Virus record (IMG/VR): IMGVR_UViG_3300014208_000025
Span: 116,967 to 180,966 of that record
DNA length: 64,000 nt
Direction: 5' to 3' (one strand)
From: a virus
Lineage: Duplodnaviria > Heunggongvirae > Uroviricota > Caudoviricetes
Positions 4,312 to 63,096 of the stretch are shown here, in pieces; positions within the stretch are counted from its first letter, which is position 1, and every line of letters begins with the position of its first letter. The translations under genes and the position numbers were made by a program. The notes beneath the pieces were generated by a model. It had not been told where the DNA came from and made no database searches. It was given only the letters and a program-made list of their open reading frames with translations.

Positions 4312-4345
4312 GGACTTTTGAAAACATCATTCTTTTCAAGAAGTC

Positions 4346-4630: not shown

Positions 4631-4649
4631 ATGTTTGTTTGTAACCTAC

Positions 4650-4823
4650 TTAAAATATTGTTGACCGTCTGCGAGCCGTAACTATCGGTGGTGTTGGAGC
4701 TGCACTTTCATCCACATCAACGATTGGAACACCATTATCCCAAATAGAAAATTCGGAATTACCAATTGTTACAACTGGAACCATATTATCCCAAACTACC
4801 AATTCGTTAGTTTGCGTTGGCAT
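4650..4823 (-). CDS. small hypothetical protein (57 aa) with internal WDNxVPxV repeat
   Basis: Unlisted ORF found by hand translation. ATG 4 nt after the stop of the upstream gene. Repeat VVWDNMVPVVT / SIWDNGVPIVD. Confidence 0.25.
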   Translation of the reverse strand: MPTQTNELVVWDNMVPVVTIGNSEFSIWDNGVPIVDVDESAAPTPPIVTARRRSTIF

Positions 4824-4827
4824 ACTT

Positions 4828-5364: not shown

Positions 5365-5366
5365 GA

Positions 5367-6368: not shown

Positions 6369-6374
6369 AATATA

Positions 6375-15464: not shown

Positions 15465-15487
15465 CATTTTATAGGAAATGTGTTACA

Positions 15488-43063: not shown

Positions 43064-46000
43064 TTATTCCCCAAGGATGTTGGTTTCGTCTAACATTGAC
43101 TTGCGACCCGTTGATTCAGCCTCTTTAATCAACTCTTTTTTTTCCTTTTTTGTCTTATCCAAGAAACCTTGCAGATTTTTGAGTAAACCACCGCCTCTTT
43201 TTGACTCCAAATGTAACGGGGAGTCGTTTTTCCATGTGTGAGTCAACTCACGGCCGGACCTTGTCTTGGCCTTATTTTCCAAGTCTCCCCGAGGGTCTTC
43301 CCCAAATGGATAGTCGGTAGCCTTTTTGTTACCTTTTTGTGATGGTCTTACATAACCGTCAGCATGTTCACCATGTTTTTCGGTTACATTCGTCTTTTCT
43401 TCCAATGGAGGAAGACCTTCTGGACCACCAGATTCACCTCCCGGCAAGCCTAAATCACCTTCCGGACTTCCGCCGCCACCTAAATCTGTCGGACCACCTC
43501 TGGCTCCGCCCGGATTACCGTCACCAGCATTCGGATTGATTTTCTTAAATGGTTTCGCAGGGTCGTTGCCCTCTTCTTCAATAGACTTAAACCTCCAACC
43601 CTGTTTGGAATCTTCCACCATCTGGTCAAGCAACGCTTCGGAATCATCTTCCGATAGATTGAATACGTTCTTGTAAATCCAATCCTTGGAAAAAATCTTG
43701 CTTTCCATCATGTTCTTGGCCAACTCGGTCTTGTTGCTCCAAACTTCAATCTTTTCCTTTTCAAAGATGGTAGATGGGTTAGTAAGCTCAAGTTTGAAAT
43801 TAACCAAACTCTCGTCACGATAACCTTGCGAATACAAATGGACGATAGCAATCTTTTCAAGTTCTGAAACGAGGACTTTTTGAATTCGTCCGATAGTCTT
43901 GGCAAAACGCACGTCTTCGGAGGCCAAAGTGGCTTTACCGGAAAGTTCTTCTTCATAACCCAAAAACGCCTTTGGAATCTTCAAAGCGGCCATTAGCTTG
44001 TTACGCAGATATTCGATATCGTCAATACCTGTGAATTCCATACCACTCAAAGTATCAATGGAAGTTCCACTGTCACTACCACGAACTGGTAAATAGAAAT
44101 CTTCAACCATGTTTTGCAGGTTGAAACGAAGGTTATAATCGCCCGTGTTCGGGTCAATATACGGTACTTTTTTCATTTTGGAGATTGCCTTCTCCATAAA
44201 TGTGTCAACATCTTGTGGTGGAATGTTACCGACATCCAGCTTGAAAATACGCTTCTCAGGAGCACGCATGATACGATGGATTAACATAGCGTCTTCCATC
44301 AATGATAATTGCTTCCAAACTCGACGAGCACCTTCCATCATAGATTTACCATATGGTAGGAAGTTGGAATCGGAAAGCAGTCTAAAGTGAGCACACTCAA
44401 AAGATTCGAGAGTTTCTACCTGTGATGTATCGGTAGGACGGATTTGGAACTTAACATAGTTCTTGTTAAGCGGATCGGTGTTTTCAAGACGTTCAACATT
44501 GTAAGCGGAAATGGGTTCGATTTGATAGACGCCGTATTCAGGGGAGATATACAATCGCATGTAGAAGTCACCATACTTACAGACGTTGCGAGTCCACGAC
44601 CAAAGGTTGTGTTCAATATTCAACACATCATAAAACAAGTTGGTTAGAATGCCTTTGATATTGTCATCTTCGGCATGGACGACAAGGATTTTACCCAACT
44701 CATTTGCGGACAAACATTCGTCGGCGTAAATATCAAGAGCGGATGCTAGGATCGGGTCCATATCCATCGTATTCGAAATTATACAACTATCAGTCGCAAA
44801 GTTGGCAAACTGTTCAACGGTAACATCATACACATCAATAGGGCCAATGGATTCAATTGATTTAATTTTATGATTCAACGTAGAAACGACATCATTTTTA
44901 AATGTATTCCAATCACAATTAGAGTATTTAAATCTATTTTGTATGGTTGTATAATCGCAACCAACATCTTTTATTAACCCCCACAAAGTTAGATTTCCAT
45001 TTTGCTTGTAATACTCAGTTGCTTTAACTTTTAGAACTTCTATGGTTAAATCATTACGGTATTTTGGATTTTTGTTTCCAGTTTGATCCCTATTAACAAA
45101 TACTTCTTTAAGTGTTTCAGAACGTTTTTTATTAGATTCGTCGGAATGAGTCTTACCGAAAAATGGATTGTTTTCTCCTTTCCTCTCACCATTCCACTTA
45201 TGACATTTTCTATTTTTATAACCATCTGAATTAAACATTTTTTCCAATGTTTTTTGTTTGTTTTCAGGACGCCACATTTCATGGGCAATTTTCCTATGAT
45301 AATCTAAATGATCCGATTTGGTCATGATTTGAAGATTATCCGGTAAATTATATGTTTTATTAAAATTTTTGTGATGGACACATTCATTAGTCAAAATAGG
45401 TTTGTAAAATTGTTCCGCCACAATTTTGTGTTCGGCTTGCCATCCTTTTGAAAAGTTATAAATACAATTATATCCATGATAATTTTTCTGGTAAAACGGC
45501 ATTACTGAATCTCCAACTTTCAAATCTACAATCTTTTTGTATTCACCGTTCCTCATTAAAAATGGATGTTTTATGCTTCCAATAACATATTGACCATTAT
45601 CAAAGGTTACTTTATATCCCATTCTCGTTCCACCCCCCTTTTTACGAGGATGAAATGCTTTTCCTAACTTGATTGATTTTGATACATGGTCATAAGAAAA
45701 CACATAGAATCTTTCTTGAGGCTTATCTTTGTACTTTTCTGCCAGTTCTTTAATAGTGGGCCTTGATCCATCTGGTAATGGAATGATAGTATCTGGTCCT
45801 ACACAATCGTAGTCCCGGAACAAATCAATTCTGGCAGCTTGGTAGGCGAGCGAAAAATCTCTTGTGTAGGCGTTGTAAGAAGTGGAACGAACCCGGTTGA
45901 AACGGTCACGGAGACTGTTTCGGTCGGTAGCATACATCAAGTCGCTTGTGTCCTTGACTTTGAGTTTTTTACCACCGACATTTCTTACTACTACACCGGA

Positions 46001-46099
46001 AGCAAAAAGTTTCTTTAAGCGAGCGAATAGTGAACGTTGTTTAACGTCAATTTCGTCGTGATTTCCGGTTGTTTCTGGTCTAAGTACTTGGTTTGCCAT
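43064..46099 (-). CDS. portal protein (T4 gp20-like) interrupted by an intein
   Basis: HRIMRAPEKRIFKLDVGNIPPQDVD (T4 [20 protein letters not shown]). Gly-rich C-terminus. Intein blocks as given in the intein feature. Confidence 0.75.
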   Translation of the reverse strand: MANQVLRPETTGNHDEIDVKQRSLFARLKKLFASGVVVRNVGGKKLKVKDTSDLMYATDRNSLRDRFNRVRSTSYNAYTRDFSLAYQAARIDLFRDYDCVGPDTIIPLPDGSRPTIKELAEKYKDKPQERFYVFSYDHVSKSIKLGKAFHPRKKGGGTRMGYKVTFDNGQYVIGSIKHPFLMRNGEYKKIVDLKVGDSVMPFYQKNYHGYNCIYNFSKGWQAEHKIVAEQFYKPILTNECVHHKNFNKTYNLPDNLQIMTKSDHLDYHRKIAHEMWRPENKQKTLEKMFNSDGYKNRKCHKWNGERKGENNPFFGKTHSDESNKKRSETLKEVFVNRDQTGNKNPKYRNDLTIEVLKVKATEYYKQNGNLTLWGLIKDVGCDYTTIQNRFKYSNCDWNTFKNDVVSTLNHKIKSIESIGPIDVYDVTVEQFANFATDSCIISNTMDMDPILASALDIYADECLSANELGKILVVHAEDDNIKGILTNLFYDVLNIEHNLWSWTRNVCKYGDFYMRLYISPEYGVYQIEPISAYNVERLENTDPLNKNYVKFQIRPTDTSQVETLESFECAHFRLLSDSNFLPYGKSMMEGARRVWKQLSLMEDAMLIHRIMRAPEKRIFKLDVGNIPPQDVDTFMEKAISKMKKVPYIDPNTGDYNLRFNLQNMVEDFYLPVRGSDSGTSIDTLSGMEFTGIDDIEYLRNKLMAALKIPKAFLGYEEELSGKATLASEDVRFAKTIGRIQKVLVSELEKIAIVHLYSQGYRDESLVNFKLELTNPSTIFEKEKIEVWSNKTELAKNMMESKIFSKDWIYKNVFNLSEDDSEALLDQMVEDSKQGWRFKSIEEEGNDPAKPFKKINPNAGDGNPGGARGGPTDLGGGGSPEGDLGLPGGESGGPEGLPPLEEKTNVTEKHGEHADGYVRPSQKGNKKATDYPFGEDPRGDLENKAKTRSGRELTHTWKNDSPLHLESKRGGGLLKNLQGFLDKTKKEKKELIKEAESTGRKSMLDETNILGE
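44771..45805 (-). mobile_element. intein (345 aa) with HNH endonuclease domain and NUMOD3, inserted in the portal gene
   Basis: N-terminal splice block C-VGPDTII. Block B VTFDNGQYVIGSIKH (T...H). HNH-like CVHHKNFNKTYNLPDNLQIMTKSDHLDYH. GENNPFFGKTHSDE. C-terminal block VYDVTVEQFANFATDSCIISN followed by Thr at +1. Penultimate His is absent. Confidence 0.65.
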
Positions 46100-46261: not shown

Positions 46262-47914
46262 TCAACGAAGTAGCCAAGTCAGGTCCTCCGTATCTCCCGG
46301 CTTTCCACCTGTCTTCATCCTCCATTGAGCTTGTCCTGTAGTCATGGATTTAGAAGTATAAATGGGAGTGTTATCATTTTGAGACTCCACATGAATCTTA
46401 CTCAACATGCTTTGAGTCAACAAAATTCCTTCTTGACGAAGCCTTAAAGCGGTGTCTCGTATCCATAAACCAAACCCCAAAGCCATTACCAAGTCATCGT
46501 TATAATTCTCTGCCGCCTGAGGTTTTCCGTTATCCCAAATGAAAGTTTTCAATTCGTTGATGAGCCGAATAGAACGGATGTCAATTGACCGGTCGAGGAA
46601 ATAACGGTGAATTTTTGATACAATTAAAGGTCGGGTCGCACTTGACGTTTCACAGCCGGGCAGACACTTTTGTTCGGCTCGGTTGTGTTTGTTGGTCATT
46701 TGTCGTTGCACATCTACAATTTTCAAATCGTTGGAACTGTAAAAGGTGTTTTTGTAACCACGGTCAATAACTTTCTGTAATACCGAATAGCCCAAGCCAC
46801 CCGTTCTTTCAATCACGAGTAACGCATCATTGTATTCAGTAGCCAAAGCGACCAACAAATCTCCGTATTCTGCCGGTGTCAAAAAATCCTGAAATTCAGC
46901 TACTTGAGTTAGACTATCCATTTCCAAGACATGAGCCGCAGAATAATCTTTACCATCGCCACGGGCCGTATCTGCACAGACAATGTAATCCACACCGGCT
47001 TTAGGTGGGTCAAATATCCAAAGAGCTTGTCCACGTCTGATTTCAACGGGGTCACGCACTTTGGTTTCTTCATACTCCTTCAAAATCATCAGGTCAATAA
47101 CGTTGGCACCCGAGGATAGGAAGTCGCAATCACATTCCTGGCTGGCTCCACGGGCACCCAAATTTTTTGTTTGTTCATCACGCCAGCGTTGGTCACGTTC
47201 AGGATGAAGAACCCAAGGCAATTTCAATGTATGGAAGTCGTTTTTCTTCTTCTCAGCTTCTACCCACATTCTATGAAACCAGTTACCGACACCGTTTGGA
47301 GTAGAAAGGATGATGGCCCGGCCGCCCGTTGACAAGGTGTTGTAAGCCGATGTCCAGATGTCTTCGGCTGAATCAATGAAAGCGGCTTCATCAAGCACCA
47401 ACAGACTTAATGCCTTTGAACGACCAGCATCCGTTGATGATGAAGTAGCAAGAATTGAAGAACCGTTTTTCAACCGCAAAGACAAACGGTTATCTTCAGT
47501 CGCAATGACCTTCAACCACGATGGAAGATGATCGTTGGCAAATCTAACTTTGGTAATAATTTCTTTACTGACTTCCTGTTTGATGGAAATGATGAGAATG
47601 CTCTTGTCACTGTGGAAAATCATCATCCATAAAGCATACGCTGATACCAAGGTGGTGATGCCCAACTGACGGGACTTCAATATCAATAAATAACGATAGT
47701 CATGAAATTTGTCCAGCGTGTTTTCTTGGAAAGGAAACAAGTCAAAGGGAATTGTGCCTTTATGGGGATGTTGAATCTTGACATACTTTCGCATGAAGTA
47801 GATAGGGTCGGCCATACACTTCTTCGTTTCGTCACGGATAACATCTCTTAGGTTTGGTTGCGGCATAGATTTAGTATTTTCCCACACCCATTCGGTCATA
47901 CCATTCCGAACCAA
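46262..47914 (-). CDS. terminase large subunit (T4 gp17-like)
   Basis: Walker A-like KSRQLGITTLV (T4 SRQLGKT). Walker B LLVLDEAAFI. C-terminal nuclease-like region. Confidence 0.85.
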   Translation of the reverse strand: MVRNGMTEWVWENTKSMPQPNLRDVIRDETKKCMADPIYFMRKYVKIQHPHKGTIPFDLFPFQENTLDKFHDYRYLLILKSRQLGITTLVSAYALWMMIFHSDKSILIISIKQEVSKEIITKVRFANDHLPSWLKVIATEDNRLSLRLKNGSSILATSSSTDAGRSKALSLLVLDEAAFIDSAEDIWTSAYNTLSTGGRAIILSTPNGVGNWFHRMWVEAEKKKNDFHTLKLPWVLHPERDQRWRDEQTKNLGARGASQECDCDFLSSGANVIDLMILKEYEETKVRDPVEIRRGQALWIFDPPKAGVDYIVCADTARGDGKDYSAAHVLEMDSLTQVAEFQDFLTPAEYGDLLVALATEYNDALLVIERTGGLGYSVLQKVIDRGYKNTFYSSNDLKIVDVQRQMTNKHNRAEQKCLPGCETSSATRPLIVSKIHRYFLDRSIDIRSIRLINELKTFIWDNGKPQAAENYNDDLVMALGFGLWIRDTALRLRQEGILLTQSMLSKIHVESQNDNTPIYTSKSMTTGQAQWRMKTGGKPGDTEDLTWLLR

Positions 47915-51800: not shown

Positions 51801-52487
51801 TTATTCTAATACATTTTTGTATTTTTTATTTATGGAATCATATCTCCAAAACTTACTAGGATTCAGAATATCAATAATTTTATTTTGCCTAATCAAATCT
51901 TTTTTCTTAAAATGTGGTGTATTGTGATACTTTGAATCGTATTCCAAAACAACATTATGAATTGAATCGTAACCATCAATATAGTACAAATAATCATCTC
52001 CGTAAATTTGATAGTTGGGTTCAAAACTAAATCCCAGACGATTCCATTTTTCCAGAAGTTCTAATTGACCTTTATCACACCGTCTTCCTATAAATTTTGT
52101 CAAAATTAAAGAATTTATCCAATTCTTTCTGTGTATTGGATTTTTCCAAGCGTTTTTAAGACCATTAGACCTTTTTCGTTTCACATCCTCCGATTGCGGC
52201 ACCGATAACTTTTTCTTTGTTTCTTCTGTGTGTTTTTGTCCTATTTTGGAATTTTTAATTTTTTCTTTTGTTTCTTCGGAATGTTTTATTCCTAATCTAA
52301 CACTACTACCCATCTTAAAACAACCAGAATTGGTTTTTGAGGAACACCGTTTACAACTCTTATTGTTTTTAGTTGAAGTTCTCAACGAATCGACATTAGA
52401 ATAAAATGTTACGTTTCCACAAATAGGGCAATTTTTTTTGTGTTGAATATCTATTATCATGCTGTATAAATAGAACTTTCCCATCAA
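51801..52487 (-). CDS. homing-endonuclease-like protein, paralog of 30223-30867
   Basis: CPICGNV...CKRC zinc ribbon. KHSEETKEKIKNSKIGQKHTEETKKKL repeats. C-terminus DKGQLELLEKWNRLGFSFEPNYQ...YIDGYD...VVLEYDSKYH...FWRYD is colinear with the other copy. Confidence 0.45.
   Translation of the reverse strand: MMGKFYLYSMIIDIQHKKNCPICGNVTFYSNVDSLRTSTKNNKSCKRCSSKTNSGCFKMGSSVRLGIKHSEETKEKIKNSKIGQKHTEETKKKLSVPQSEDVKRKRSNGLKNAWKNPIHRKNWINSLILTKFIGRRCDKGQLELLEKWNRLGFSFEPNYQIYGDDYLYYIDGYDSIHNVVLEYDSKYHNTPHFKKKDLIRQNKIIDILNPSKFWRYDSINKKYKNVLE
52466..52473 (+). promoter_or_regulatory. T4 late-promoter-like octamer TATAAATA
   Basis: tgctgTATAAATAgaac, 32 nt upstream of the ATG at 52506. Confidence 0.4.
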
Positions 52488-53031: not shown

Positions 53032-56000
53032 TCAAATATAATTTACTTTGGAAAACCCATCTTCTTTTATTACTTCAAGTTGATTATCTACACAATCCCG
53101 AAGTGCTTCCAAATGTGAAATTATTAAAACAAAATCAAATTGGGATTTTAGATAAGTAAATAAAATACTCATAGAAGATAAATTCTCAGCATCAAGTACC
53201 GAAAAACCTTCGTCGATTACGAGGAAATTCGGGCGTGGTAAATTGGAAATGTTGATTAGAGCCACACGAATTGCCAGTGACAACGTGAACTTCTCCATAC
53301 CACTCGTTAGACTCATAAGCCACTTCTTGTCATCGTAAACGATGTAGGGAATGATGTTTTTGCCATCCGTTTCGAACTTCGCACTGAACTCGGAAATCTG
53401 TGAAAGAATGGTATTCACTTCCCGCTCGATTTCTGGAACGGTCATGGTGATGACATTGAACGGGATGCCGTCACGACACACGGCTTGGGTGTAAGTTTCG
53501 TAAACCTTATATTCCGCCTCAGTCTTTTTGGCTTCTTCCATCTTCTTGTTGATGGTATCAATCTGTGATTTGAAGGTAGCGATTTTTCCGTTCAAATCCA
53601 TTAACGTCTTGTTTTTGACTTTGAGTAGTGTTTCCACATTGCTCAACTCCAGTTTGATGGCTTGAATGCGTTTGTTGACTTCTTCGTTAGCAATCCACGA
53701 ATCCTTATTCTTGTTATAGGTTGCAATGTCATTTTCAATCTTTATCAACCCCTCTTCATTGGATTTCAACGTCACCTTCAAACGATTGATTTTATCGTTT
53801 AGACGAATGACCGCATCCTTTACCTTGTTTCGTTTTGATAGCAATTGGGTGTAATTGTCATAGGATTTGACGGCCCACTCGTTAGCTGAAATCTTAACGT
53901 TGATTTCGGTAAGTTGACGAATCAAGTCTTCGGCAATGACTTTATCCGCTTTCAATTCCGACTCAGCTTTGTCAGCATTCGTGATGATGTTACCTGCATT
54001 GGAAACACAGAATGTGCAGTTGGGGTCATATTTGTGACCCTTTTTACGAGCCACAACCCCGTTACGATGGATGATTTCGTTCTTCTTCTGATGGATTTTC
54101 GACTGAATTTCCACCCGAGTAGTCAATAGAGCTTGATGTCCTTTGTAAGAAGATGATATGTCTTTTTCTTCCATCTCCTTGATTTCCGTTTCAATGGGCG
54201 TCAGTTGAGATTGTGTTGCGACCAACTCAGTCTCCACAGTAGTAACATCCGTCTGACCCGATTTAATGACCGTTTCAAACTTGATTTTGTTGGCTTGAGA
54301 GACTTCCAACGGAGGAATGTTCCCATCAATTTTAATCAACAGTTTCGTTTCTTTAACTATCTTCTGCTGAACGGTAGTCTGTTGGGTGGTCAATTCTTGA
54401 ACTTTGACGGATTCATCGGTGAACGCATTGTTGGCTTGAGCAACAGCATTGTTTAGGTCAACGAGTAACTTGGTATAGTCATCATTACGATAGGTCTTCA
54501 ATAACGTCGCCAATTCCTTGAAACGTTCATTGGCTTCATTGTAGAGTCGGTCGAATATGGATAGACCCATGAACTGAGCCAAAAGGTCTTTGCGGTCGGT
54601 GTTACCCATATCAATGACAGACCCATTGTTTTTACCGCCCTGAACGCTAAGCGACGTAAGAATGAAGTCTTCGTAGGTGCCAAGATAGTCTCGAATGACT
54701 TCGTTGGTATCTCTACGGTCTTCACCATGTAAATCCACTTCAACATCGTTTTCCAACTTCCAAAACCGAACGTTGACTTTGACGGCCCCTTTGCGGTCAG
54801 CCTTGCCGTTACGTTCGATGAAGTATTTTTTTCCGTCAATTTCGAACTCCAATTTGCATCGGAAGCTAGTTTTTTGGACGTTAAGGATGTTCGCCGCTTT
54901 GAACTCACGTTCACACTTGTCAAAGAGACAGAATGTAAGAGCCGATAGAATGGTGGATTTGCCGGAAGCGTTCGCTGCAAACAAACCGACAACATCCTTC
55001 ATCTTGGTAAAGTCAATGACATTACCTTCACCGTAACTAAACATGTTGTCCCACTCAAAACGGATGGGAATCCAACGAATGTTGCGAGCAAAATCATCCT
55101 TCTTGATTGCTCCGTTGGTCTTATCATTTACCGCAATCACTTGATCAATAAAGGCTTGGTCGGTGATGTTCAAACGATTTTTCAAGTAGTCGGTAATGAG
55201 TTGAACCTGATAGTCTCGGTTGGAAATGTTACCCAAAACGATGCCGTTGGGAGCAATAGACTTGACTTTAGAGGCATCACTCTCAAGTTTACTGAATGAA
55301 GTTTCAATGACTTCGGTTAACCCACGCAGTTCGGTCAACGCCGTTTTTACTTCGGTAGCGACCGTTTCAAAAAGTTGAAACTGGATACGAGCCTTCTTTG
55401 GAACGGTGGCCAAATCGGTCAAAACCTGACCTTTATCCATAACCACAGTGAAAAATCCGTAGTTGTTTGGTATTTCAATGTGTTCGTATGATTTATTATC
55501 CAAATTCCATAACGTATAACCATGACCATTTAAGGATTCCCCATGATTTTGTTGTATTAAACTTCCGCAAAATCTCACAACAGGTTTGTTGTTTTGATAA
55601 TCATATTCTTGTAACGTTTGATTTTTATGTATGTCTCCTAAAAGAGCAATATGATGATTATTAAACAGTGAAGTTGTAACTGATTTGTTAATAATACGAA
55701 ACCCAATATCGGTTATTGCGTTATCAACAGGTCCGTGAAATAAACATATAAAATGTTGATATTTATTACGATATATTTGAGGAATGTCTTCACCCTTGAT
55801 ATATTTCTCGGGCGAGTCGAAGATGCTGTAGTTGTTAATACAGACGTTTCCGAACCCATATAATCCAGATTCTTTCAAGTAATAGAGATTGGAATGATTG
55901 ATAGCGTTGACGATTGGAGTCAAGCTATCCAACCGATTTCGATTGGTGAGATTGGTATCGTGGTTTCCCGGAATCAAAATTGTTGGCCTCAACTCAGCCA

Positions 56001-56238
56001 AGTTGAATAACAAATCTTTTACTAATTGAACACACTCGGGTGAAAGGTCCGTTTTGTTGTGTACTACGTCTCCGAGAATACAAATCAATGTTGCCGGTGG
56101 AGAATTTTTGACCTCTTCAAATAACCGATTAAATATTTCTCGATATTCTTCATGCCGTTTAGTTAATCGGATATGGCAATCTCCAAAATGGAGTATATGT
56201 GTAAAACGTGATGTTTCGGAGATTAGAGTTGTTATCAT
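53032..56238 (-). CDS. fused Mre11/SbcD nuclease plus Rad50/SbcC ATPase (T4 gp47 and gp46 equivalents in one polypeptide)
   Basis: N-terminal calcineurin-like phosphoesterase motifs GDCH, GDVVH, GNHD, HGP, GDIH. Walker A FAANASGKSTILSALTF. Long coiled coil with zinc-hook-like CTFC. Signature SGMEKFTLSLA. Walker B/D-loop FLVIDEGFSVLD and ISH. One uninterrupted 1068-aa ORF. Confidence 0.75.
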   Translation of the reverse strand: MITTLISETSRFTHILHFGDCHIRLTKRHEEYREIFNRLFEEVKNSPPATLICILGDVVHNKTDLSPECVQLVKDLLFNLAELRPTILIPGNHDTNLTNRNRLDSLTPIVNAINHSNLYYLKESGLYGFGNVCINNYSIFDSPEKYIKGEDIPQIYRNKYQHFICLFHGPVDNAITDIGFRIINKSVTTSLFNNHHIALLGDIHKNQTLQEYDYQNNKPVVRFCGSLIQQNHGESLNGHGYTLWNLDNKSYEHIEIPNNYGFFTVVMDKGQVLTDLATVPKKARIQFQLFETVATEVKTALTELRGLTEVIETSFSKLESDASKVKSIAPNGIVLGNISNRDYQVQLITDYLKNRLNITDQAFIDQVIAVNDKTNGAIKKDDFARNIRWIPIRFEWDNMFSYGEGNVIDFTKMKDVVGLFAANASGKSTILSALTFCLFDKCEREFKAANILNVQKTSFRCKLEFEIDGKKYFIERNGKADRKGAVKVNVRFWKLENDVEVDLHGEDRRDTNEVIRDYLGTYEDFILTSLSVQGGKNNGSVIDMGNTDRKDLLAQFMGLSIFDRLYNEANERFKELATLLKTYRNDDYTKLLVDLNNAVAQANNAFTDESVKVQELTTQQTTVQQKIVKETKLLIKIDGNIPPLEVSQANKIKFETVIKSGQTDVTTVETELVATQSQLTPIETEIKEMEEKDISSSYKGHQALLTTRVEIQSKIHQKKNEIIHRNGVVARKKGHKYDPNCTFCVSNAGNIITNADKAESELKADKVIAEDLIRQLTEINVKISANEWAVKSYDNYTQLLSKRNKVKDAVIRLNDKINRLKVTLKSNEEGLIKIENDIATYNKNKDSWIANEEVNKRIQAIKLELSNVETLLKVKNKTLMDLNGKIATFKSQIDTINKKMEEAKKTEAEYKVYETYTQAVCRDGIPFNVITMTVPEIEREVNTILSQISEFSAKFETDGKNIIPYIVYDDKKWLMSLTSGMEKFTLSLAIRVALINISNLPRPNFLVIDEGFSVLDAENLSSMSILFTYLKSQFDFVLIISHLEALRDCVDNQLEVIKEDGFSKVNYI

Positions 56239-56462
56239 ATTTCGTAAGTAAAGAATTCCATGTTACCGAGTTTCCAACTAATTTCAAATGGAACTTGCCA
56301 TCGCCATGCTCCTTGAATCCGATTCTTCATGTGGTTAATTTGAATTTCCATACGTCGTTGTTCAACCTCGTTGGGGTCAATCAAATCAGTAAACCATCCA
56401 TATCTTGGATACTCCCAATTTCCAAGATTCAAAAACGCTAAATAATAAATTCTCTGTCTCAT
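56235..56462 (-). CDS. small hypothetical protein
   Basis: ORF between the primase and Mre11-Rad50 genes. Confidence 0.25.
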   Translation of the reverse strand: MRQRIYYLAFLNLGNWEYPRYGWFTDLIDPNEVEQRRMEIQINHMKNRIQGAWRWQVPFEISWKLGNMEFFTYEI

Positions 56463-57409
56463 AAATTCATCTTCATTTTGATGATGTCAGAAAAGTCAAA
56501 TGGTTTTGACCGTTCGATGATTTCGTTTACTTTTTGAAATCCAAGTTGTGACGGGTCTTTTTCTTTCAACGTGATAAGATGAACGTCAACGTCATAGCCT
56601 TTGAGTTTTTCAATTTCGTCAAAAATTCTGACGGCACTTTTCAAGGCATCATTATCCAAAACAATGTTGACACGCCACACACCATATTTTACGATGGATT
56701 CTCGTAAGCGGTTTGAAATAGTCGTTCCAAACAATGGAATGGCATTACGCCTAACTGATATTCCGTCAAAACTTCCTTCGACCAAAGTAATCGGCTCATT
56801 CCAATTGATGAACAATTCAAACCCCACAATGTCTTTTGACCACGATGGAAGCTTATATTTCATCGGATTGTCGTAATACGCCCGGGCCGCGAAGAAATTA
56901 AGGTTTCCTTCATTGTCATAGGATGGAATGAGGATACGCTTTCTGTATTCGCCTTGTTCACAATAACCAATATTGTAACGGAGGATGTCACATCTTGTCA
57001 CCCCACGACTTCTTAGGTATGACACCGCATTACCGTATTCCATAGATTTAGACGGATTGCGGAGGGAAATGAACTCGTCGGGCAAGGCCAGTATTTGATG
57101 TTTTTCTTCATTCAATATCCTTGGATGGAATTGATATTCACCGACAATTTTGTAAAGTTCGGCAAAATGAATGGAGTTTACCCTTAATTTTTTGAAAAGG
57201 GAACGGATGGATTTTCCAGAAGTATGACAAATCCAACAATTCCATTGTTGAACTTTATTTCCGGACAAACAAATTTCAAGTTTAGGAATTCGTTTACTTT
57301 CATTACAAAAGGGACAGTGATACATTGCTTCAGTACCACCTAAACGTAAACGGGCAGATTGTCCTAAAACTTTATCAATTAGAGAAATTAACTGAATCTG
57401 TTGTAACAT
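56459..57409 (-). CDS. DNA primase (T4 gp61-like, zinc finger plus TOPRIM)
   Basis: CPFCNESKR...CWICHTSG zinc-binding. VEGSFDGISV and VLDNDA TOPRIM motifs (T4 LEGPIDSLF, VLDNEP). Confidence 0.75.
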   Translation of the reverse strand: MLQQIQLISLIDKVLGQSARLRLGGTEAMYHCPFCNESKRIPKLEICLSGNKVQQWNCWICHTSGKSIRSLFKKLRVNSIHFAELYKIVGEYQFHPRILNEEKHQILALPDEFISLRNPSKSMEYGNAVSYLRSRGVTRCDILRYNIGYCEQGEYRKRILIPSYDNEGNLNFFAARAYYDNPMKYKLPSWSKDIVGFELFINWNEPITLVEGSFDGISVRRNAIPLFGTTISNRLRESIVKYGVWRVNIVLDNDALKSAVRIFDEIEKLKGYDVDVHLITLKEKDPSQLGFQKVNEIIERSKPFDFSDIIKMKMNL

Positions 57410-57450: not shown

Positions 57451-58482
57451 TTACACGACAGAAATCAAAATACCATTAACGAAGGACATCGTGGTAAAAC
57501 TTTCGCTCACGAAATAAATCTGTTGTGTCAGACCACCAAAAACGTTGCTAGCAGAAACAAAACTAGATGATATTGAATTGTTACTCCAACTAGAGGTTCC
57601 CAACAACAAAGAAGCAGTTATCGTTGAAGCAGATATATTACCACTCACCAATAAACTTGAAGTATTGACTACAAGAATATTAGATGGGACTCCAACTACT
57701 CCATTTCCAATAATAAATAAATTGTTTTCGTTTGAAGATGAAATGTTATACTTACCACTTACATGTTGATAGTCTGCGTTTGCAATAGTACCAAGACCTT
57801 CCGCGTGAGAATAATTTGAGGATGCGGTGGTATTATAACCTTCCGTATGAGAACCCGCACCGGATGCGATTGTATTAAAACCTTCTGCGTGAGAAGAAAT
57901 ACCAGATGCAATAGTGCTATTACCTTCCGCGTGAGAAGAACCAAACCCAGATGCAACGGTGCTAATACCTTCCGCGTGAGAATAATTTGCGGATGCAATA
58001 GTGCCATTACCTTCCGTATGAGAAGCAAGGCCAGAAGCAATAGTGCTAATACCTTCCGCGTGAGAATAATTTGCGGATGCAGTGTTACTATAACCTTCTG
58101 CATGAGAAGCAAATCCCCCTGCTTTTGTAATTTCTCCTTCTGCATGAGAACTAATTGATGTTATATTATTTAATCCATTGTTTAAGGTAGTTATAATTGC
58201 AGTTGAACCACTGATAGTTGTTATTTCCAAATAACTTATGGATGATGAAATAAATAAAGCATTTGACGCCGTTATGAATGATGAAGATATAACCGACGAT
58301 GAAATATATGGTTCGGTTGCATGCGATTCCGTTACATAGGATGCGGTGAATGATGTAACTGTAAGAGATTCTATCAAACTTCCTGTTCCATCAAATAACT
58401 GTCCACCATCTGTAGTGACAAGCATGTGTCTTGTATCAATCGGATGCTTACCTGATAAATCCTGTGTTGCTGAATATGGCAT
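57451..58482 (-). CDS. fibrous protein with tandem SHAEG-x-x-TIASG repeats
   Basis: At least 8 tandem ~18-aa repeats (SHAEGISTIASGLASHTEGNGTIASANY...). The underlying DNA is an imperfect tandem repeat. Confidence 0.45.
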   Translation of the reverse strand: MPYSATQDLSGKHPIDTRHMLVTTDGGQLFDGTGSLIESLTVTSFTASYVTESHATEPYISSSVISSSFITASNALFISSSISYLEITTISGSTAIITTLNNGLNNITSISSHAEGEITKAGGFASHAEGYSNTASANYSHAEGISTIASGLASHTEGNGTIASANYSHAEGISTVASGFGSSHAEGNSTIASGISSHAEGFNTIASGAGSHTEGYNTTASSNYSHAEGLGTIANADYQHVSGKYNISSSNENNLFIIGNGVVGVPSNILVVNTSSLLVSGNISASTITASLLLGTSSWSNNSISSSFVSASNVFGGLTQQIYFVSESFTTMSFVNGILISVV

Positions 58483-58515: not shown

Positions 58516-58746
58516 TCAACAATCTAGGTCCAATTGTGATATCATTGGAGTTCTACCATAAATCTGTCTATAACGAGGGGAGTTATGAACGCATCCGTCA
58601 CACAAAATGAACTCTCCGGGATTGAAGAATTTTTCCCAACCCTTCCTTTCGTAAAAACCGGAAGTCAATCTACCATATTCGGTATTCTCCGATCTACCGA
58701 CAATGATTGTTTTACAACGGTCACAAATTAACGTGAGTTCAGTCAT
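58516..58746 (-). CDS. small zinc-ribbon protein
   Basis: CDRC...CDGC. Confidence 0.3.
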   Translation of the reverse strand: MTELTLICDRCKTIIVGRSENTEYGRLTSGFYERKGWEKFFNPGEFILCDGCVHNSPRYRQIYGRTPMISQLDLDC

Positions 58747-59245
58747 ACAAAGACATGATTATAGAATCTCTTATATCTTCTATTCTTTTATCTATATTTC
58801 CTTTTTTATTTAAAACATCAAATCGAGATAAATTTGGTATTATTTTGGGAAGTTCTTGTTTTACTAATTCTTTACCCGATAATCCTTTTATTCTTGCCAT
58901 GCCTAAAACTTTTTTTCGAGCAGTATTAACATTAATCAAATTAATAGGAATCTTTAATTCTTCTGATAGAATATATTCTAAAACAGCATTAAAACGAGAC
59001 AGTTTTATGATTACTTGTTGACTTGAAAACCCTCCAGAAAAACCAGACAGAGCAGCTTCAAGATTTATATGATTAACACTTGAAAAAAGTGGATGTTTAG
59101 AAAAGAAATTAGATATAAACTTTCCCTTTTCCTTGTTCGTTTCAAACTTGGAAATGTCTATAAAACCAGCGTCTTTAATAATAAACACCGACTGTGAAAA
59201 AGCCCATCCACATGTTTGTGTAGAAGCGTCCAAACCTAAAATCAT
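58739..59245 (-). CDS. RuvC-like Holliday junction resolvase
   Basis: MILGLDASTQTCGWAF N-terminus (RuvC ILGIDPG..TGWA pattern with catalytic Asp). 168 aa. Confidence 0.55.
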   Translation of the reverse strand: MILGLDASTQTCGWAFSQSVFIIKDAGFIDISKFETNKEKGKFISNFFSKHPLFSSVNHINLEAALSGFSGGFSSQQVIIKLSRFNAVLEYILSEELKIPINLINVNTARKKVLGMARIKGLSGKELVKQELPKIIPNLSRFDVLNKKGNIDKRIEDIRDSIIMSLYD

Positions 59246-60441: not shown

Positions 60442-63096
60442 TTAGAAATCCATTTTCACCACAATGTTAATTGGAAAATCCGGAGTAATCTTAATAGGAC
60501 TTCCAAGTTTTGCTACGGCTACAAGTTCGGTTCCATTGTATAATCCAACAGTGGTTACATACGGAGCAAGAAAGGAACCCGTTGGATCGGCTTTTGACTG
60601 AACCGAGTAGTTTAAAAAATTGGTATTGATTTGTGGGGCTTGACCACGTATCGTTCTAGCATTCAAAAAATCAATGATGTCACTTAAATACTTCTTCTGA
60701 GAATTTGGAGTCACGTAGGTTTCGTAATTCTGTTGAGTCAACCGATAGATGAAATACTTCCACAAGATGTTCATGTCATTGTTATCAATCTTATTATCTT
60801 CATTGAAATCCAGTTCTACAACCAAAGTGTTGTTGATGTCTGAAAAACTCTTGGAAAATAACGTAGCGGTGTCGGTCCATGATGAAGAATACATGTTGTA
60901 AACGGTAACTTCTTCATCGGTATTGGTGCCAATAATAGAACTGCTCCAATCAGTAATTGGATAGCCTGACGCTTCTGTGCTCTTATATTTCATGTAACGT
61001 AACAACACATCAACATCTTGGAAGTCAAATTGACCGTTGTTGTTAAGGTCATAAAACGATTGTGAAATCGTGACCGCAGTTGGATTGGTACTAACATTGA
61101 ACTCGCCCGGGTCAATTGGACATACGATTTGTTTTTCAAAAATTACCTGTTTAGATTTGAAATTCATGTCGTATTCATATTCATCACCGGTCGCATCATT
61201 TTGGAGAATGCCTTCAAATGCGGAACCTGAAGTCATGATAACCATTTTACCATTACGATAGAAAACATTTCCAACATAGAACTCTTCACGAAAATTCTTC
61301 AAGTTGTAAATGTAAGCTTTACCCGTCAAATCCCCAAGATCATACACACTACCCGTAAAACTGGCGGTATTTGGTGCCAAATCCATAATTCGATTGGAAC
61401 CAGAAATTAACATTGGAGCACCAATCGTGATGAAATTTTCACAAATATCCGTAGCATAACCATAAGCCCGATGTGGATGTAACAAACGTTTCTTGGTTTG
61501 ATATACGTTAGTTATTTCCCAATCTTGACCTGTAGTATCAGGCATTGAGCCTGTCGTCTTATGGAAAAGAACAAACTGACCGTTAATAGCTTCATCGGGG
61601 TCGCCGCAGTAATGTTGTTGATACAATGTACCACGAAGGTAACATATTGATGGTGTCATGTAAAACTTTGGACAACCGGCTACCGCATAATCGCCACAGA
61701 TACTAACCGACCAACCCAAGGTATTATCTTTGAGGATTTTTTCGTTTCCATAGGATTTACGAGCCAAATAATAGCCACGTCCGGCATCAGAACATCGTTC
61801 AAAGAAATAAATGGCGCCTTGATGATACAAAGATGACCCCGTATATTCATAGATGAACCTATCGGTTGGAGCTCCAACTACAATGGTATTGGCAAAAATG
61901 GCAACATCGTGTCCGAAACTGTCGGCGGTATTAATGGAACCAGAAAAATATGGATAAGTTGGGAAAAACGTTAGTGGTTGGATTGAATTGTTATCAGGCG
62001 TCAACACGAAACTTGATGTCCAAAGACCTCCCACCAATTCATAAACATAGGCCCGTGATTGACTGACTTTGGAACTTCCAATCACAAGGCTACCCGTAAA
62101 CGAGCCAGTAGCTTTATTCAAATCTACTGACCAACCAAAGCCATCACCTACTAAAATGTCTCCCGGAGGGGAAATGGTTTGATACAATGACCAACTAGAT
62201 TCGTTGTTTCCAACTTGTTGATACATGAATACCGCACCTTTACTTCCCGATTCATAAATGGAACTGATTGCCAACCAACCATCATTTTTTGATACATCCC
62301 AACCAAACGAATTAGAAACTGAAGTATTTGGGTTATCTAATGTAACAAGAAACGGGTCATCAGATACCACCCCACTTACTCGGAAAACTAAATAACTTGA
62401 ACCGGTCGAATAGTTGGTACCCAAAATTACTTGACCTCCGCCGTTTGATGTTATCGCTAAACTGGTTTTTTGATATGAACTTCCGGATTCCGACGTTTCC
62501 AAAACGACATAACCAAAACTTTGGGATGGTGGAACAGTAGCTACAACCGATAATAATGATGAACTAATTCCATATCCTGTAATTTGTGGTTGTTGCCGAA
62601 CCGCATAGACATCAACATCCAAACGAGTTAAATCAAAAAGATCAACACTTCCAGTTCCTACCGCAACAAAGGATGCGGTATCAATGTTGATGCTACTGGA
62701 AAAATATGGGTTTCCAACCACAAGAATTGTGTTGTGAATATCCAAAGAACGACCATAACCATCTTCGGATGCGGTGTAGTATTGTCCAACATCCAATATC
62801 AAATCCAAATCTGAGGTAACAGGAACCGAACCAGTATATTCGGTGTGGAGAATCAAACTAGCAGTGTCGGTGGTTAAGAAAATGTCTTCTCCTGATGAAA
62901 GAGGACGATACAAAATCCTTTTCAAATCATGCGTATCAGTATTGATGTTGTAACGATATACTTCTACTGAACCAGTTCGTTTAATACTAGCACTAGCCGA
63001 ATTATAACGCAACAAAGCGGGATTGCCGATTGAGGCCCAATTCCCCTCACAGGCTACAGCGTAACCAAAATTTTCATTGTGTATGTTGGCAATCAT
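60442..63096 (-). CDS. large structural protein with FG-GAP-like beta-propeller repeats and two dockerin/EF-hand-like Ca-binding repeats
   Basis: FGWSVDL, LGWSVSICGDYAVAGCP, FGHDVAIFANTIVVGAP, FGWDVSKNDGWLAISS. C-terminal DLNNNGQFDFQDVDVLLRYM and DFNEDNKIDNNDMNILWKYF. Confidence 0.4.
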   Translation of the reverse strand: MIANIHNENFGYAVACEGNWASIGNPALLRYNSASASIKRTGSVEVYRYNINTDTHDLKRILYRPLSSGEDIFLTTDTASLILHTEYTGSVPVTSDLDLILDVGQYYTASEDGYGRSLDIHNTILVVGNPYFSSSINIDTASFVAVGTGSVDLFDLTRLDVDVYAVRQQPQITGYGISSSLLSVVATVPPSQSFGYVVLETSESGSSYQKTSLAITSNGGGQVILGTNYSTGSSYLVFRVSGVVSDDPFLVTLDNPNTSVSNSFGWDVSKNDGWLAISSIYESGSKGAVFMYQQVGNNESSWSLYQTISPPGDILVGDGFGWSVDLNKATGSFTGSLVIGSSKVSQSRAYVYELVGGLWTSSFVLTPDNNSIQPLTFFPTYPYFSGSINTADSFGHDVAIFANTIVVGAPTDRFIYEYTGSSLYHQGAIYFFERCSDAGRGYYLARKSYGNEKILKDNTLGWSVSICGDYAVAGCPKFYMTPSICYLRGTLYQQHYCGDPDEAINGQFVLFHKTTGSMPDTTGQDWEITNVYQTKKRLLHPHRAYGYATDICENFITIGAPMLISGSNRIMDLAPNTASFTGSVYDLGDLTGKAYIYNLKNFREEFYVGNVFYRNGKMVIMTSGSAFEGILQNDATGDEYEYDMNFKSKQVIFEKQIVCPIDPGEFNVSTNPTAVTISQSFYDLNNNGQFDFQDVDVLLRYMKYKSTEASGYPITDWSSSIIGTNTDEEVTVYNMYSSSWTDTATLFSKSFSDINNTLVVELDFNEDNKIDNNDMNILWKYFIYRLTQQNYETYVTPNSQKKYLSDIIDFLNARTIRGQAPQINTNFLNYSVQSKADPTGSFLAPYVTTVGLYNGTELVAVAKLGSPIKITPDFPINIVVKMDF

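What the first reader, a model, noticed from the sequence alone, without database searches (positions are those of the whole stretch)
53032..56238. Mre11/SbcD nuclease and Rad50/SbcC ATPase fused in a single 1068-aa polypeptide
All five phosphoesterase motifs of the gp47/SbcD family lie in residues 1 to about 330. They are followed in the same reading frame by Walker A, a long coiled coil with a CTFC zinc-hook-like element, the ABC signature and Walker B/D-loop of gp46/SbcC. T4 and bacteria encode these as two genes. A natural fusion would fix the stoichiometry at 1:1 and is an unusual architecture.
Basis: seen in the sequence. Interest (0 to 1): 0.5.

Follow-up and report, generated by a model that had tools for sequence, protein, structure and literature searches.

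The report
Single-chain Mre11-Rad50 nuclease of jumbo phage
This jumbo-phage gene really does encode the DNA-end-processing nuclease Mre11/SbcD and its ATPase partner Rad50/SbcC as one protein, but this fused form was described in 2011 (Mimivirus R555 and relatives) and is common in phage metagenomes, so it is a new example of a known type.

Summary
Window 53032-56238 (minus strand) is one uninterrupted 1068-aa ORF. It has an N-terminal Mre11/SbcD-type nuclease (core, capping-like domain, flexible linker, helix-loop-helix), then a 10-residue connector, then a complete Rad50/SbcC ATPase (Walker A, Q-loop, two ~173-aa coiled-coil arms, CxxC hook, signature, Walker B/D-loop, H-loop).

It is not a frameshift artefact. 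The identical protein is encoded on independently assembled contigs, all 80 IMG/VR relatives inspected have both halves in one frame, and all catalytic residues are invariant down to 36% identity.

It is not novel as an architecture. Yoshida, Claverie and Ogata (2011) described Mre11/Rad50 fusions in Mimivirus R555, a Bacillus phage, plasmids and abundant phage-like metagenomic scaffolds carrying primases. The best structural matches among viral proteins are the Mimiviridae R555-type fusions. The N-terminal 400 residues alone find 1,194 distinct 50%-identity clusters at E ≤ 1e-30, almost all about 1050-1100 aa.

The gene is the last in a translationally coupled primase-orf75-fusion operon in a jumbo myovirus. 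A primase lies directly upstream in 77 of 80 related loci.

The most likely function is an ATP-dependent homodimeric DNA-end/hairpin nuclease for recombination-dependent replication, as for T4 gp46/gp47. Interest is low.

The parts
53032..56238 (-). Complete 1068-aa Mre11/SbcD-Rad50/SbcC fusion ORF (stop codon at 53032-53034)
55534..56238 (-). aa 1-235: Mre11-type metallophosphoesterase (nuclease) core with motifs I-VI (D20/H22, GD56-57..H60, GNHD91-94, H168, GDxH201-204, H232/H239)
   Evidence: Pfam Metallophos 8e-12; phrog_100 SbcD-like 1e-21; invariant residues; Foldseek hits to T. maritima Mre11 3tho_B and 4o43_B
55288..55521 (-). aa 240-317: beta-rich domain with one helix, in the position of the Mre11 capping domain
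   Evidence: AF2 secondary structure and pLDDT of about 87-94. The alignment to full-length T. maritima Mre11 spans 401 columns. Calling it a capping domain is an inference from position.
55219..55287 (-). aa 318-340: flexible linker (pLDDT below 50 at 319-332), 22-27 aa long across the family
55108..55218 (-). aa 341-377: helix-loop-helix (helices 341-355 and 361-377), the likely counterpart of the Mre11 Rad50-binding domain; length fixed at 37 aa in 110 homologs
   Evidence: The functional assignment is inferred from its position and from the HLH domain of T. maritima Mre11 as described in PMC3175470.
55078..55107 (-). aa 378-387: 10-residue connector that makes the fusion junction; exactly 10 aa in all 110 homologs
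   Evidence: This matches the 9-12-residue linker estimated by Yoshida et al. to bridge about 28 Å between the Mre11 C-terminus and the Rad50 N-terminus.
54562..55077 (-). aa 388-559: Rad50/SbcC head, N-terminal half (Walker A 420-428, Q-loop Q533)
54040..54561 (-). aa 560-733: ascending coiled-coil arm (about 174 aa, about 25 nm)
53995..54039 (-). aa 734-748: apex with zinc-hook motif C741-T-F-C744 (both Cys invariant)
53479..53994 (-). aa 749-920: descending coiled-coil arm (about 172 aa)
53035..53478 (-). aa 921-1068: Rad50/SbcC head, C-terminal half (signature S979-G-M-E982, Walker B D1009-E1010, D-loop D1016, H-loop H1042)
56235..56462 (-). 75-aa ORF of unknown function. Its stop overlaps the fusion's ATG (ATGA) and its own ATG overlaps the primase stop (ATGA). 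It is present only in close relatives.
56459..57409 (-). DnaG-like DNA primase (316 aa), first gene of the operon; conserved immediately upstream of the fusion in 77 of 80 related viral loci
   Evidence: also in Mel-JY01 and LR756508

Best explanation
The gene encodes a natural single-chain Mre11-Rad50 (SbcD-SbcC) enzyme of the R555 type, carried by a jumbo myovirus of about 352 kb.

Shown:
- One polypeptide contains a complete Mre11-type nuclease module: catalytic core, capping-like domain, disordered linker and helix-loop-helix.
- An invariant 10-residue connector joins this module to a complete Rad50-type ABC ATPase.
- The two head halves of the ATPase are separated by an antiparallel coiled coil of about 173 residues per arm, tipped with an invariant CxxC hook.

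Inferred mechanism, by analogy with solved Mre11-Rad50/SbcCD complexes:
- Two chains form an (MR)2 homodimer through the nuclease-nuclease interface, ATP-dependent head engagement and a shared Zn2+ at the hooks.
- The helix-loop-helix packs on the base of its own coiled coil as in separate-subunit complexes, so the covalent junction lies at a point that does not move.
- The disordered 22-27-aa linker still lets the nuclease dimer swing between the ATP-bound resting position and the DNA-cutting position.
- ATP binding and hydrolysis then drive Mn2+-dependent cleavage of DNA ends, blocked ends or hairpins.

Inferred biological role: generating recombinogenic ends for recombination-dependent replication and repair of the phage genome (possibly also host-DNA breakdown), as for T4 gp46/gp47. 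The gene is co-expressed with the primase in a translationally coupled replication operon. The fusion itself mainly ensures equimolar co-synthesis and co-inheritance of two obligate partners.
For: - ORF and domain content.
- All catalytic and structural motif residues are invariant across 65-110 fused homologs down to 36% identity.
- AF2 model with mean pLDDT 84.6 shows core, capping-like domain, disordered linker, HLH, connector, head, coiled coil, hook and head.
- Foldseek against PDB: best hits are Rad50 (7zr1_D, 8.7e-21) and E. coli SbcC (7yzp_C, 4.6e-16). The N-terminal ~400 aa align to full-length T. maritima Mre11 (3tho_B, 4.2e-12, 401 columns; also 4o43_B, 3qg5).
- Foldseek against BFVD: best hits are Mimiviridae R555-type fused proteins aligned over 1200-1400 columns (Tupanvirus, 3.4e-76, 25% identity) and the 1310-1318-aa proteins of the Tenacibaculum phages pT24/PTm1.
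- Motif V GDxH and motif II GDxxH match the deviations reported for R555.
- The connector is exactly 10 aa, against the predicted 9-12 aa.
- Not an artefact: identical protein in independent assemblies; 80 of 80 loci fused.
- It is the only copy detected: no second SbcC/SbcD-like ORF in the window, and only one matching place in the complete Mel-JY01 and LR756508 genomes.
- Replication context: primase directly upstream in 77 of 80 loci, with ATGA overlaps in the window.
- Phage identity of the window: sheath, major head protein, portal, TerL.
Against: - No biochemical data exist for this or, as far as the searchable literature shows, any natural fused MR.
- The ABC signature is non-canonical (S-G-[F/M/Y]-E) and H60 is Asn in 14 of 65 homologs, so kinetics or regulation could differ from model enzymes.
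- Similarity to T4 gp47 is weak at profile level (E 0.02). All canonical SbcC/SbcD/Rad50 NCBIfam models score far below their cutoffs, so functional transfer from model systems crosses a long evolutionary distance.
- Only 64 kb of a genome of about 352 kb was examined for paralogs and recombination partners.
Confidence: 0.87

Rival explanations
1. Sequencing or assembly artefact: two adjacent genes (sbcD-like and sbcC-like) joined by a frameshift or a lost stop codon.
For: None was found. One of 80 related loci (L072) has an ORF that ends early at 770 aa, which shows that such errors or pseudogenes do occur in metagenomic contigs.
Against: - The identical 1068-aa product is on contigs from independent assemblies and samples.
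- 80 of 80 IMG/VR loci and 131 of 150 cluster representatives are fused and colinear.
- The junction (HLH 37 aa, connector 10 aa) has a fixed length and conserved sequence in 110 homologs.
- The cultured-phage genome Mel-JY01 has the same single CDS.
Confidence: 0.01
2. A Lamassu-like or other SMC-type conflict system (defence against competing phages, or counter-defence) rather than a replication/recombination enzyme. In this reading the Rad50-like part senses DNA ends and the phosphoesterase acts as a toxic effector.
For: - The PADLOC LmuB model matches aa 398-1043 at E 4.2e-28.
- Foldseek finds Lamassu LmuB chains (9hqu_A, 2.9e-14) among the hits.
- Phages do carry defence systems.
Against: - LmuB descends from SbcC, so cross-hits are expected (bioRxiv 10.1101/2025.04.02.646746).
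- The SbcC-like PHROG scores higher (1e-49) and Rad50/SbcC chains are the top structural hits.
- In Lamassu the SbcD nuclease was split off and replaced by other effectors. Here the full Mre11 nuclease, capping-like domain and HLH are retained with invariant catalytic residues.
- There are no LmuA/LmuC-like neighbours. The neighbours are a primase and phage structural genes.
- The position next to the primase is near-universal in the clade (77 of 80), and the family is essentially absent from 185,579 cellular genomes. That pattern fits a core replication gene and not an accessory defence island.
Confidence: 0.04
3. The N-terminal domain is a generic calcineurin-like phosphoesterase (phosphatase or pyrophosphatase, not a DNA nuclease) that happens to be fused to an SMC-like ATPase, so the protein is not functionally an MR complex.
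For: - Pfam assigns only the broad Metallophos family.
- JGI labels on some homologs include 'MPP superfamily phosphohydrolase' or 'LpxH'.
- The NCBIfam sbcD hit is weak (1.2e-5, below cutoff) and a PdeM model scores similarly.
Against: - phrog_100 SbcD-like at 1e-21.
- The structural alignment to Mre11 covers the core, the capping domain and the C-terminal HLH (3tho_B, 401 columns).
- The PDB sequence hits are specifically to Mre11/SbcD.
- The domain order, the HLH and the connector length are what is expected for a Rad50-binding Mre11.
Confidence: 0.04

Closest known systems
Mre11/Rad50 fusion proteins of the Mimivirus R555 type (Yoshida, Claverie & Ogata 2011, Virol J 8:427; PMC3175470) and their Mimiviridae orthologs (Tupanvirus, Harvfovirus, Yasminevirus, Catovirus, Klosneuvirus)
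   Same: - Same order in one polypeptide: Mre11-like nuclease, then capping/HLH-length region, short connector, Rad50-like ATPase with coiled coil.
- Same motif deviations: GDxxH in motif II and Asp replacing the first His of motif V.
- These are the best structural matches in the viral library, aligned end to end.
- The 2011 paper already reported abundant R555-like genes on phage-like metagenomic scaffolds that also carry primases.
   Different: - Shorter: 1068 aa against 1200-1390 aa, mainly because the coiled coil is shorter.
- Only about 19-25% identity.
- Encoded by a tailed jumbo phage and not a giant eukaryotic virus.
- R555 itself was not compared directly here.
Fused homologs in sequenced phages: Microcystis phage Mel-JY01 WWT39521 ('AAA domain containing protein'), uncultured huge phages LR756508 and LR756501/LR756503, Tenacibaculum phages pT24/PTm1
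   Same: - Mel-JY01: 36% identity over 99% of the length, the same primase - small ORF - fusion gene order, and only one matching place in the genome.
- LR756508: 36% identity, with a primase directly upstream.
   Different: - None is annotated as a fusion or studied experimentally.
- The LR756508 copy is interrupted inside the nuclease domain by a 305-aa TnsA-like endonuclease ORF.
- The Tenacibaculum proteins are about 250 aa longer.
T4 gp47/gp46 (SbcD-like/SbcC-like recombination nuclease)
   Same: - Phage-encoded MR-type enzyme in the same PHROG families (phrog_100 and phrog_77).
- The family profile matches the gp46 head at E 7.6e-10.
- The catalytic motifs of gp47 line up with those of this protein.
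- The presumed role in recombination-dependent replication is taken from T4 (established knowledge; discussed).
   Different: - T4 has two genes separated by two small ORFs.
- gp46 is 560 aa, about 120 aa shorter than the Rad50 part here (aa 388-1068, 681 aa).
- gp47 has GDxxD and GHxH where this protein has GDxxH and GDxH. The gp46 signature is SEGE against SGME here.
- Similarity to gp47 is marginal (E 0.02).
Canonical bacterial SbcCD and archaeal/eukaryotic Mre11-Rad50 (solved: 6s6v/7yzp, 3tho/3qg5, 3av0/5dny, 7zr1)
   Same: Same folds for both halves, a zinc-hook CxxC, the ABC motifs, and an HLH Rad50-binding element after a flexible linker.
   Different: - Those are separate subunits.
- This protein scores far below every curated NCBIfam cutoff for SbcC, SbcD or Rad50, in line with the non-canonical placement of fused forms in the 2011 phylogeny.
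- There is no Nbs1/Xrs2-type partner.
Lamassu LmuB (SMC-like sensor of an anti-phage system)
   Same: CxxC-SMC-type ATPase descended from SbcC. It matches a PADLOC model (E 4.2e-28) and solved LmuB structures.
   Different: Lamassu has no Mre11 nuclease and uses LmuA effectors and LmuC. It is a cellular defence operon, whereas this gene is a core phage gene next to the primase.

Membership tests
Mre11/Rad50 (SbcD/SbcC) fusion proteins, R555 type (PMC3175470) | N-terminal Mre11/SbcD-like metallophosphoesterase with DxH ... GDxx[D/H] ... GNH[D/E] and the downstream His motifs | tested here: met
   D20/H22, GD56-57/H60, GNHD91-94, H168, GDxH201-204, H232/H239
Mre11/Rad50 (SbcD/SbcC) fusion proteins, R555 type (PMC3175470) | C-terminal Rad50/SbcC-like ABC ATPase: Walker A, then coiled coil, then signature, Walker B and D-loop | tested here: met
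Mre11/Rad50 (SbcD/SbcC) fusion proteins, R555 type (PMC3175470) | Both modules in one reading frame, in the order Mre11 then Rad50, reproducibly | tested here: met
   80 of 80 loci; 131 of 150 representatives
Mre11/Rad50 (SbcD/SbcC) fusion proteins, R555 type (PMC3175470) | A capping/HLH-length region, plus a short connector (about 9-12 aa) between the Mre11 C-terminus and the Rad50 N-terminus | tested here: met
   (HLH 341-377; connector exactly 10 aa in 110 sequences); criterion taken
Mre11/Rad50 (SbcD/SbcC) fusion proteins, R555 type (PMC3175470) | Specific relatedness to R555 and its homologs rather than to canonical MR | tested here: met
   The best BFVD matches are Mimiviridae fused proteins, and the motif II and motif V deviations are shared. 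A direct R555 alignment or phylogeny was not done.
Canonical SbcC / SbcD / Rad50 (NCBIfam TIGR00618, TIGR00619, NF003034 and others) | Score at or above the curated whole-protein cutoff | tested here: not met
   62.2 against 478.5 bits (sbcc); 25.2 against 77.65 (sbcd); 53.9 against 700 (Rad50)
Canonical SbcC / SbcD / Rad50 (NCBIfam TIGR00618, TIGR00619, NF003034 and others) | Nuclease and ATPase encoded as two separate genes in an operon | tested here: not met
   a single ORF
Rad50/SbcC CxxC-SMC ATPases (functional class) | CxxC zinc hook at the apex of an antiparallel coiled coil | tested here: met
   C741/C744 are invariant and lie between arms of 174 and 172 aa. Zinc binding itself cannot be tested with these tools.
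Rad50/SbcC CxxC-SMC ATPases (functional class) | DNA-stimulated ATPase activity and ATP-dependent head dimerisation | not testable with these tools
   Only the motifs are present.
Mre11/SbcD nucleases (functional class) | Mre11 fold: phosphoesterase core, capping domain and C-terminal Rad50-binding HLH | tested here: met
   Foldseek 3tho_B at 4.2e-12 over 401 columns, plus 4o43_B and 3qg5_C/D; layout in the AF2 model
Mre11/SbcD nucleases (functional class) | Mn2+-dependent exo/endonuclease activity; homodimerisation | not testable with these tools
   -
Lamassu (LmuABC) | LmuB SMC-like ATPase accompanied by an LmuA effector and LmuC, in a defence operon | tested here: not met
   The LmuB model hit is explained by homology to SbcC. 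The neighbours are a primase, orf75 and structural genes. The family is absent from cellular genomes.
T4 gp46/gp47 family | Detectable homology to gp46 and to gp47 | tested here: inconclusive
   gp46 head at E 7.6e-10. gp47 only at E 0.02, though the motifs align. Both fall in the same PHROGs.

The most novel reading that the evidence does not exclude
The near-obligate primase-to-MR-fusion gene pair (77 of 80 loci, often with overlapping stop and start codons) may mark a dedicated replication-restart module in this large, uncultured jumbo-phage clade. In that reading the single-chain MR, with its unusual S-G-[F/M/Y]-E signature and rigidly fixed HLH-connector geometry, cooperates physically with the primase to turn processed ends into primed forks. 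That coupling is not known for separate-subunit MR enzymes. Independently, the protein would be the first natural single-chain MR available as a compact model for structural and mechanistic work.
Probability: 0.1. Interest if true: 0.45.

Novelty: new member of a known kind. Interest (0 to 1): 0.2.

Why it matters
It matters modestly.

- Annotation: this abundant phage family is currently labelled 'AAA domain containing protein' or 'SbcCD ATPase subunit', so the nuclease half and the fusion are overlooked.
- Extent of the 2011 finding: with modern data the fused form appears in at least about 1,200 50%-identity clusters. It is essentially virus-restricted and tightly linked to a primase.
- Possible use: a naturally single-chain, 1068-aa MR with short coiled coils could be a convenient object for cryo-EM or single-molecule work on the MR conformational cycle.

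It does not reveal a new kind of system or open a long-standing question.

Tried and rejected
- Frameshift or assembly artefact: rejected.
- A second, unfused SbcC/SbcD in the window: HMMs of the three conserved modules found nothing beyond the gene itself, with the best other ORF at E of about 0.3-1.
- Near-identical DNA in cultured or deposited phages: none by megablast with 19 kb.
- Cellular or prophage origin: a scan of 185,579 species genomes gave one 2.6-kb MAG contig only.
- Group I intron as the cause of the split homolog in LR756508: no Rfam hit. The insert encodes a TnsA-like endonuclease.
- Naming relatives from source annotations: no informative names.
- Literature on natural fused MR beyond the 2011 paper, and on Mel-JY01: nothing further in the searchable library.
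- Lamassu/defence reading: considered because of the PADLOC LmuB hit and rejected on context and domain content.
- RuvC-like assignment for ORF 58739-59245: no support from Pfam, PHROGs or PDB sequences.


Full report
**1. The observation**

Window 53032-56238 holds one ATG-to-stop ORF of 1068 aa on the minus strand. The alternative-frame ORFs inside it are short and have no support.

- Pfam finds Metallophos at aa 14-183 (E 8e-12, above the curated cutoff). It also finds sub-threshold but coherent SMC_N/AAA_23 (397-618) and SbcC_Walker_B (978-1026) matches.
- PHROGs assigns aa 12-287 to the SbcD-like family phrog_100 (1e-21) and aa 265-1067 to the SbcC-like family phrog_77 (1e-49).
- PDB sequence searches hit archaeal Rad50 heads, E. 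coli SbcC and, weakly, T. maritima Mre11.

**2. It is not an artefact**

- The exact 1068-aa sequence is in the public protein collection from JGI, ENA and Logan, on contigs of up to 351,839 bp.
- It is encoded on independently assembled contigs: ENA ERZ27249449 (351,720 bp) and Logan SRR6484324 (21,473 bp), with identical neighbours.
- The top 120 homologs (46-81% identity) are all about 1045-1106 aa apart from a few truncated ones.
- In 80 of 80 IMG/VR loci the nuclease and ATPase halves lie in the same open frame.
- Among the best 150 representatives of 50%-identity clusters found with the N-terminal 400 aa alone, 131 span both ends of the query. The rest are truncated fragments or genes interrupted by mobile elements.
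- The complete genome of the cultured Microcystis phage Mel-JY01 has the same single CDS at 36% identity and 99% coverage.

**3. Conservation**

In alignments of 65 and 110 fused homologs, the invariant or at least 90% conserved positions are these:

| Element | Residues |
|---|---|
| Motif I | D20, H22 |
| Motif II | G56-D57 |
| Motif III | G91-N92-H93-D94 |
| Motif IV | H168 |
| Motif V | G201-D202-x-H204 |
| Further His | H232, H239 |
| Walker A | N423/G426-K427-S428 |
| Q-loop | Q533 |
| Hook | C741, C744 |
| Signature | S979-G980-x-E982 |
| Walker B | D1009-E1010 |
| D-loop | D1016 |
| H-loop | H1042 |

H60 of motif II is His in 50 of 65 sequences and Asn in 14 of 65. The third signature position is F, M, Y or L and never Gly. 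Both enzymatic halves are therefore under purifying selection.

**4. Anatomy**

The AF2 model used 110 sequences and has mean pLDDT 84.6.

| Residues | Element |
|---|---|
| 1-235 | alpha/beta phosphoesterase core |
| 240-317 | beta-rich domain with one helix (capping-domain position) |
| 319-332 | disordered stretch (pLDDT below 50) |
| 341-355 and 361-377 | helix-loop-helix (pLDDT about 88-93) |
| 378-387 | connector |
| 388 onwards | first beta-strand of the Rad50 head |
| about 560-733 | ascending coiled-coil helices |
| 734-748 | non-helical apex carrying C741/C744 |
| about 749-920 | descending coiled-coil helices |
| 921-1068 | C-terminal half of the head |

- Across 110 homologs the HLH is always 37 aa and the connector always 10 aa. 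The disordered linker is 22-27 aa and the arms are 174-177 and 170-172 aa.
- Foldseek against the PDB puts Rad50 (7zr1_D, 8.7e-21) and E. coli SbcC (7yzp_C, 4.6e-16) on top.
- The same search aligns the N-terminal part to full-length T. maritima Mre11 (3tho_B, 4.2e-12, 401 columns for a 366-residue chain; also 4o43_B and 3qg5_C/D).
- The layout is that of a normal Mre11 (core, capping, flexible linker, Rad50-binding HLH) joined by ten residues to a normal Rad50.
- Yoshida et al. estimated that 9-12 residues would bridge the ~28 Å between the Mre11 C-terminus and the Rad50 N-terminus in the T. maritima complex. The invariant 10-aa connector fits that estimate.

**5. Context**

- The window belongs to a jumbo myovirus: tail sheath (6-3284), major head protein (25770-27551), portal (43064-46099), large terminase (46262-47914) and tRNA nucleotidyltransferase (15461-16930).
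- The fusion gene is the last of three genes whose stops and starts overlap as ATGA: DnaG-like primase (56459-57409), a 75-aa ORF (56235-56462) and the fusion.
- A primase homolog lies directly upstream on the same strand in 77 of 80 IMG/VR loci. The other three loci lack upstream sequence. The same holds in Mel-JY01 and LR756508.
- No other SbcC- or SbcD-like ORF is in the window.
- tblastn finds only one matching place in the complete Mel-JY01 and LR756508 genomes. The fused gene is therefore probably the phage's only MR.
- The family is virtually absent from cellular genomes: one 2.6-kb MAG contig among 185,579 species representatives.
- It is abundant in viral contigs: at least 578 confirmed in IMG/VR, and 1,194 50%-identity clusters at E ≤ 1e-30 for the nuclease half alone.

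**6. Mechanism**

Shown: the domain content, the motif conservation, the geometry of the junction and the operon context.

Inferred from solved MR/SbcCD complexes and T4 genetics (established knowledge; discussed):
- An (MR)2 homodimer is held together by the nuclease dimer, ATP-engaged heads and a Zn-bridged hook.
- The HLH is anchored on the coiled-coil base, so the covalent link is placed at a static interface.
- The disordered linker preserves the swing of the nuclease between the resting state and the cutting state.
- The enzyme carries out ATP-dependent, Mn2+-dependent processing of ends and hairpins.
- This processing feeds recombination-dependent replication and repair.

The fusion mainly secures equimolar synthesis and joint inheritance or transfer. 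Separate MR subunits already assemble 1:1, so it does not create a new stoichiometry.

**7. Rivals**

- Artefact: rejected (section 2).
- Lamassu-like conflict system: this is prompted by a PADLOC LmuB hit (4.2e-28) and LmuB structures among the Foldseek hits. LmuB descends from SbcC and Lamassu lacks the Mre11 nuclease, whereas this protein keeps it intact, and the gene's context and distribution are those of a core replication gene.
- Generic phosphoesterase instead of a nuclease: this is contradicted by the Mre11-specific fold match, which includes the capping domain and the HLH, and by phrog_100.

**8. Comparison with what is known**

- Mre11/Rad50 fusions were first described by Yoshida, Claverie and Ogata in 2011.
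- That paper covered Mimivirus R555, Bacillus phage 0305phi8-36, Clostridium and Deferribacter plasmids, several eukaryotes, and abundant R555-like genes in GOS/BIOME viral fractions on scaffolds with phage primases.
- The present protein's best matches in the viral structure library are the Mimiviridae R555-type proteins. They align end to end: Tupanvirus at 3.4e-76 and 25% identity, then Harvfovirus, Yasminevirus, Catovirus and others.
- The 1310-1318-aa proteins of the Tenacibaculum phages pT24 and PTm1 follow.
- It shares the deviations reported for R555: GDxxH in motif II, and Asp for the first His of motif V.
- It is not a canonical SbcC, SbcD or Rad50 by NCBIfam cutoffs.
- It is distant from T4 gp46 (E 7.6e-10) and gp47 (E 0.02).
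- No experimental study of a natural fused MR was found in the searchable literature.

**9. Verdict**

The finding is real and correctly read as a natural fusion, but the architecture is already known and widespread in viruses. It is best filed as a new, uncharacterised member of the R555-type Mre11/Rad50 fusion family, in a primase-linked jumbo-phage clade.

- Interest: 0.2.
- Most novel reading still open: a functional primase-MR coupling specific to this clade. Probability about 0.1, interest if true about 0.45.

Noticed in passing
window 43064-46099 (-): The portal protein is unusually long (1011 aa). It has an HNH-endonuclease-like region at aa 194-434, ahead of the portal domain at aa 443-846. 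This could be an intein or an N-terminal HNH fusion.
   Followed up: no
window 51801-52487 (-): A 228-aa protein with a NUMOD3 motif, probably a free-standing homing endonuclease. It lies two genes downstream of the fusion gene. Mel-JY01 has a GIY-YIG gene next to its primase-fusion module.
   Followed up: no
L002 (LR756508) 2941-7166: The homolog in a 484-kb phage is split inside the nuclease domain, between motif V and GSLIQQNHGE. The insert is a 305-aa Cys-rich ORF with a TnsA-like endonuclease domain. Rfam finds no group I intron. Several cluster representatives end at the same site (P0158, P0192, P0193), so this is a recurrent mobile-element insertion point.
   Followed up: partly
homologs P0124, P0195, P0248, P0260: There are insertions of about 330 aa just before the GNHD motif. 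P0124 gives an intein splicing-domain hit (E 1.6e-7, below the Pfam cutoff). A third recurrent break lies just after Walker A (P0138, P0162, P0208 share a foreign C-terminal tail).
   Followed up: partly
window 56235-56462 (-): A 75-aa ORF is translationally coupled between the primase and the fusion gene. It has no family hit and is found only in the closest relatives, although Mel-JY01 has a small ORF of about 57 aa in the same position.
   Followed up: partly
window 57451-58482 (-) and 58739-59245 (-): A 343-aa protein full of 'SHAEG..T.AS' repeats (phrog_25468, function unknown) sits upstream of the primase. Beyond it is a 168-aa ORF whose N-terminus 'ILGLDASTQTCGWAF' looks RuvC-like by eye. 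That ORF has no Pfam, PHROG or PDB sequence hit.
   Followed up: partly
window 15461-16930 (+) and 33040-34212 (-): There is a phage-encoded tRNA nucleotidyltransferase (CCA-adding type, phrog_2244, 2e-56) and a second nucleotidyltransferase (phrog_388, 1.7e-55).
   Followed up: no
window 60442-63096 (-): An 884-aa protein has FG-GAP repeats and a dockerin-type domain. It may be an adhesin or a fibre component.
   Followed up: no
L072 2492-4801: In one of the 80 related loci the fused ORF ends at 770 aa although the tblastn match continues to 5606. This is probably a frameshift or a pseudogene.
   Followed up: no
L005 (JAPLWP010000133.1): The only hit in species-representative cellular genomes is a 2.6-kb contig binned into a Candidatus Magasanikiibacteriota MAG from Lac Pavin. 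It is most likely phage DNA mis-binned into the MAG.
   Followed up: no
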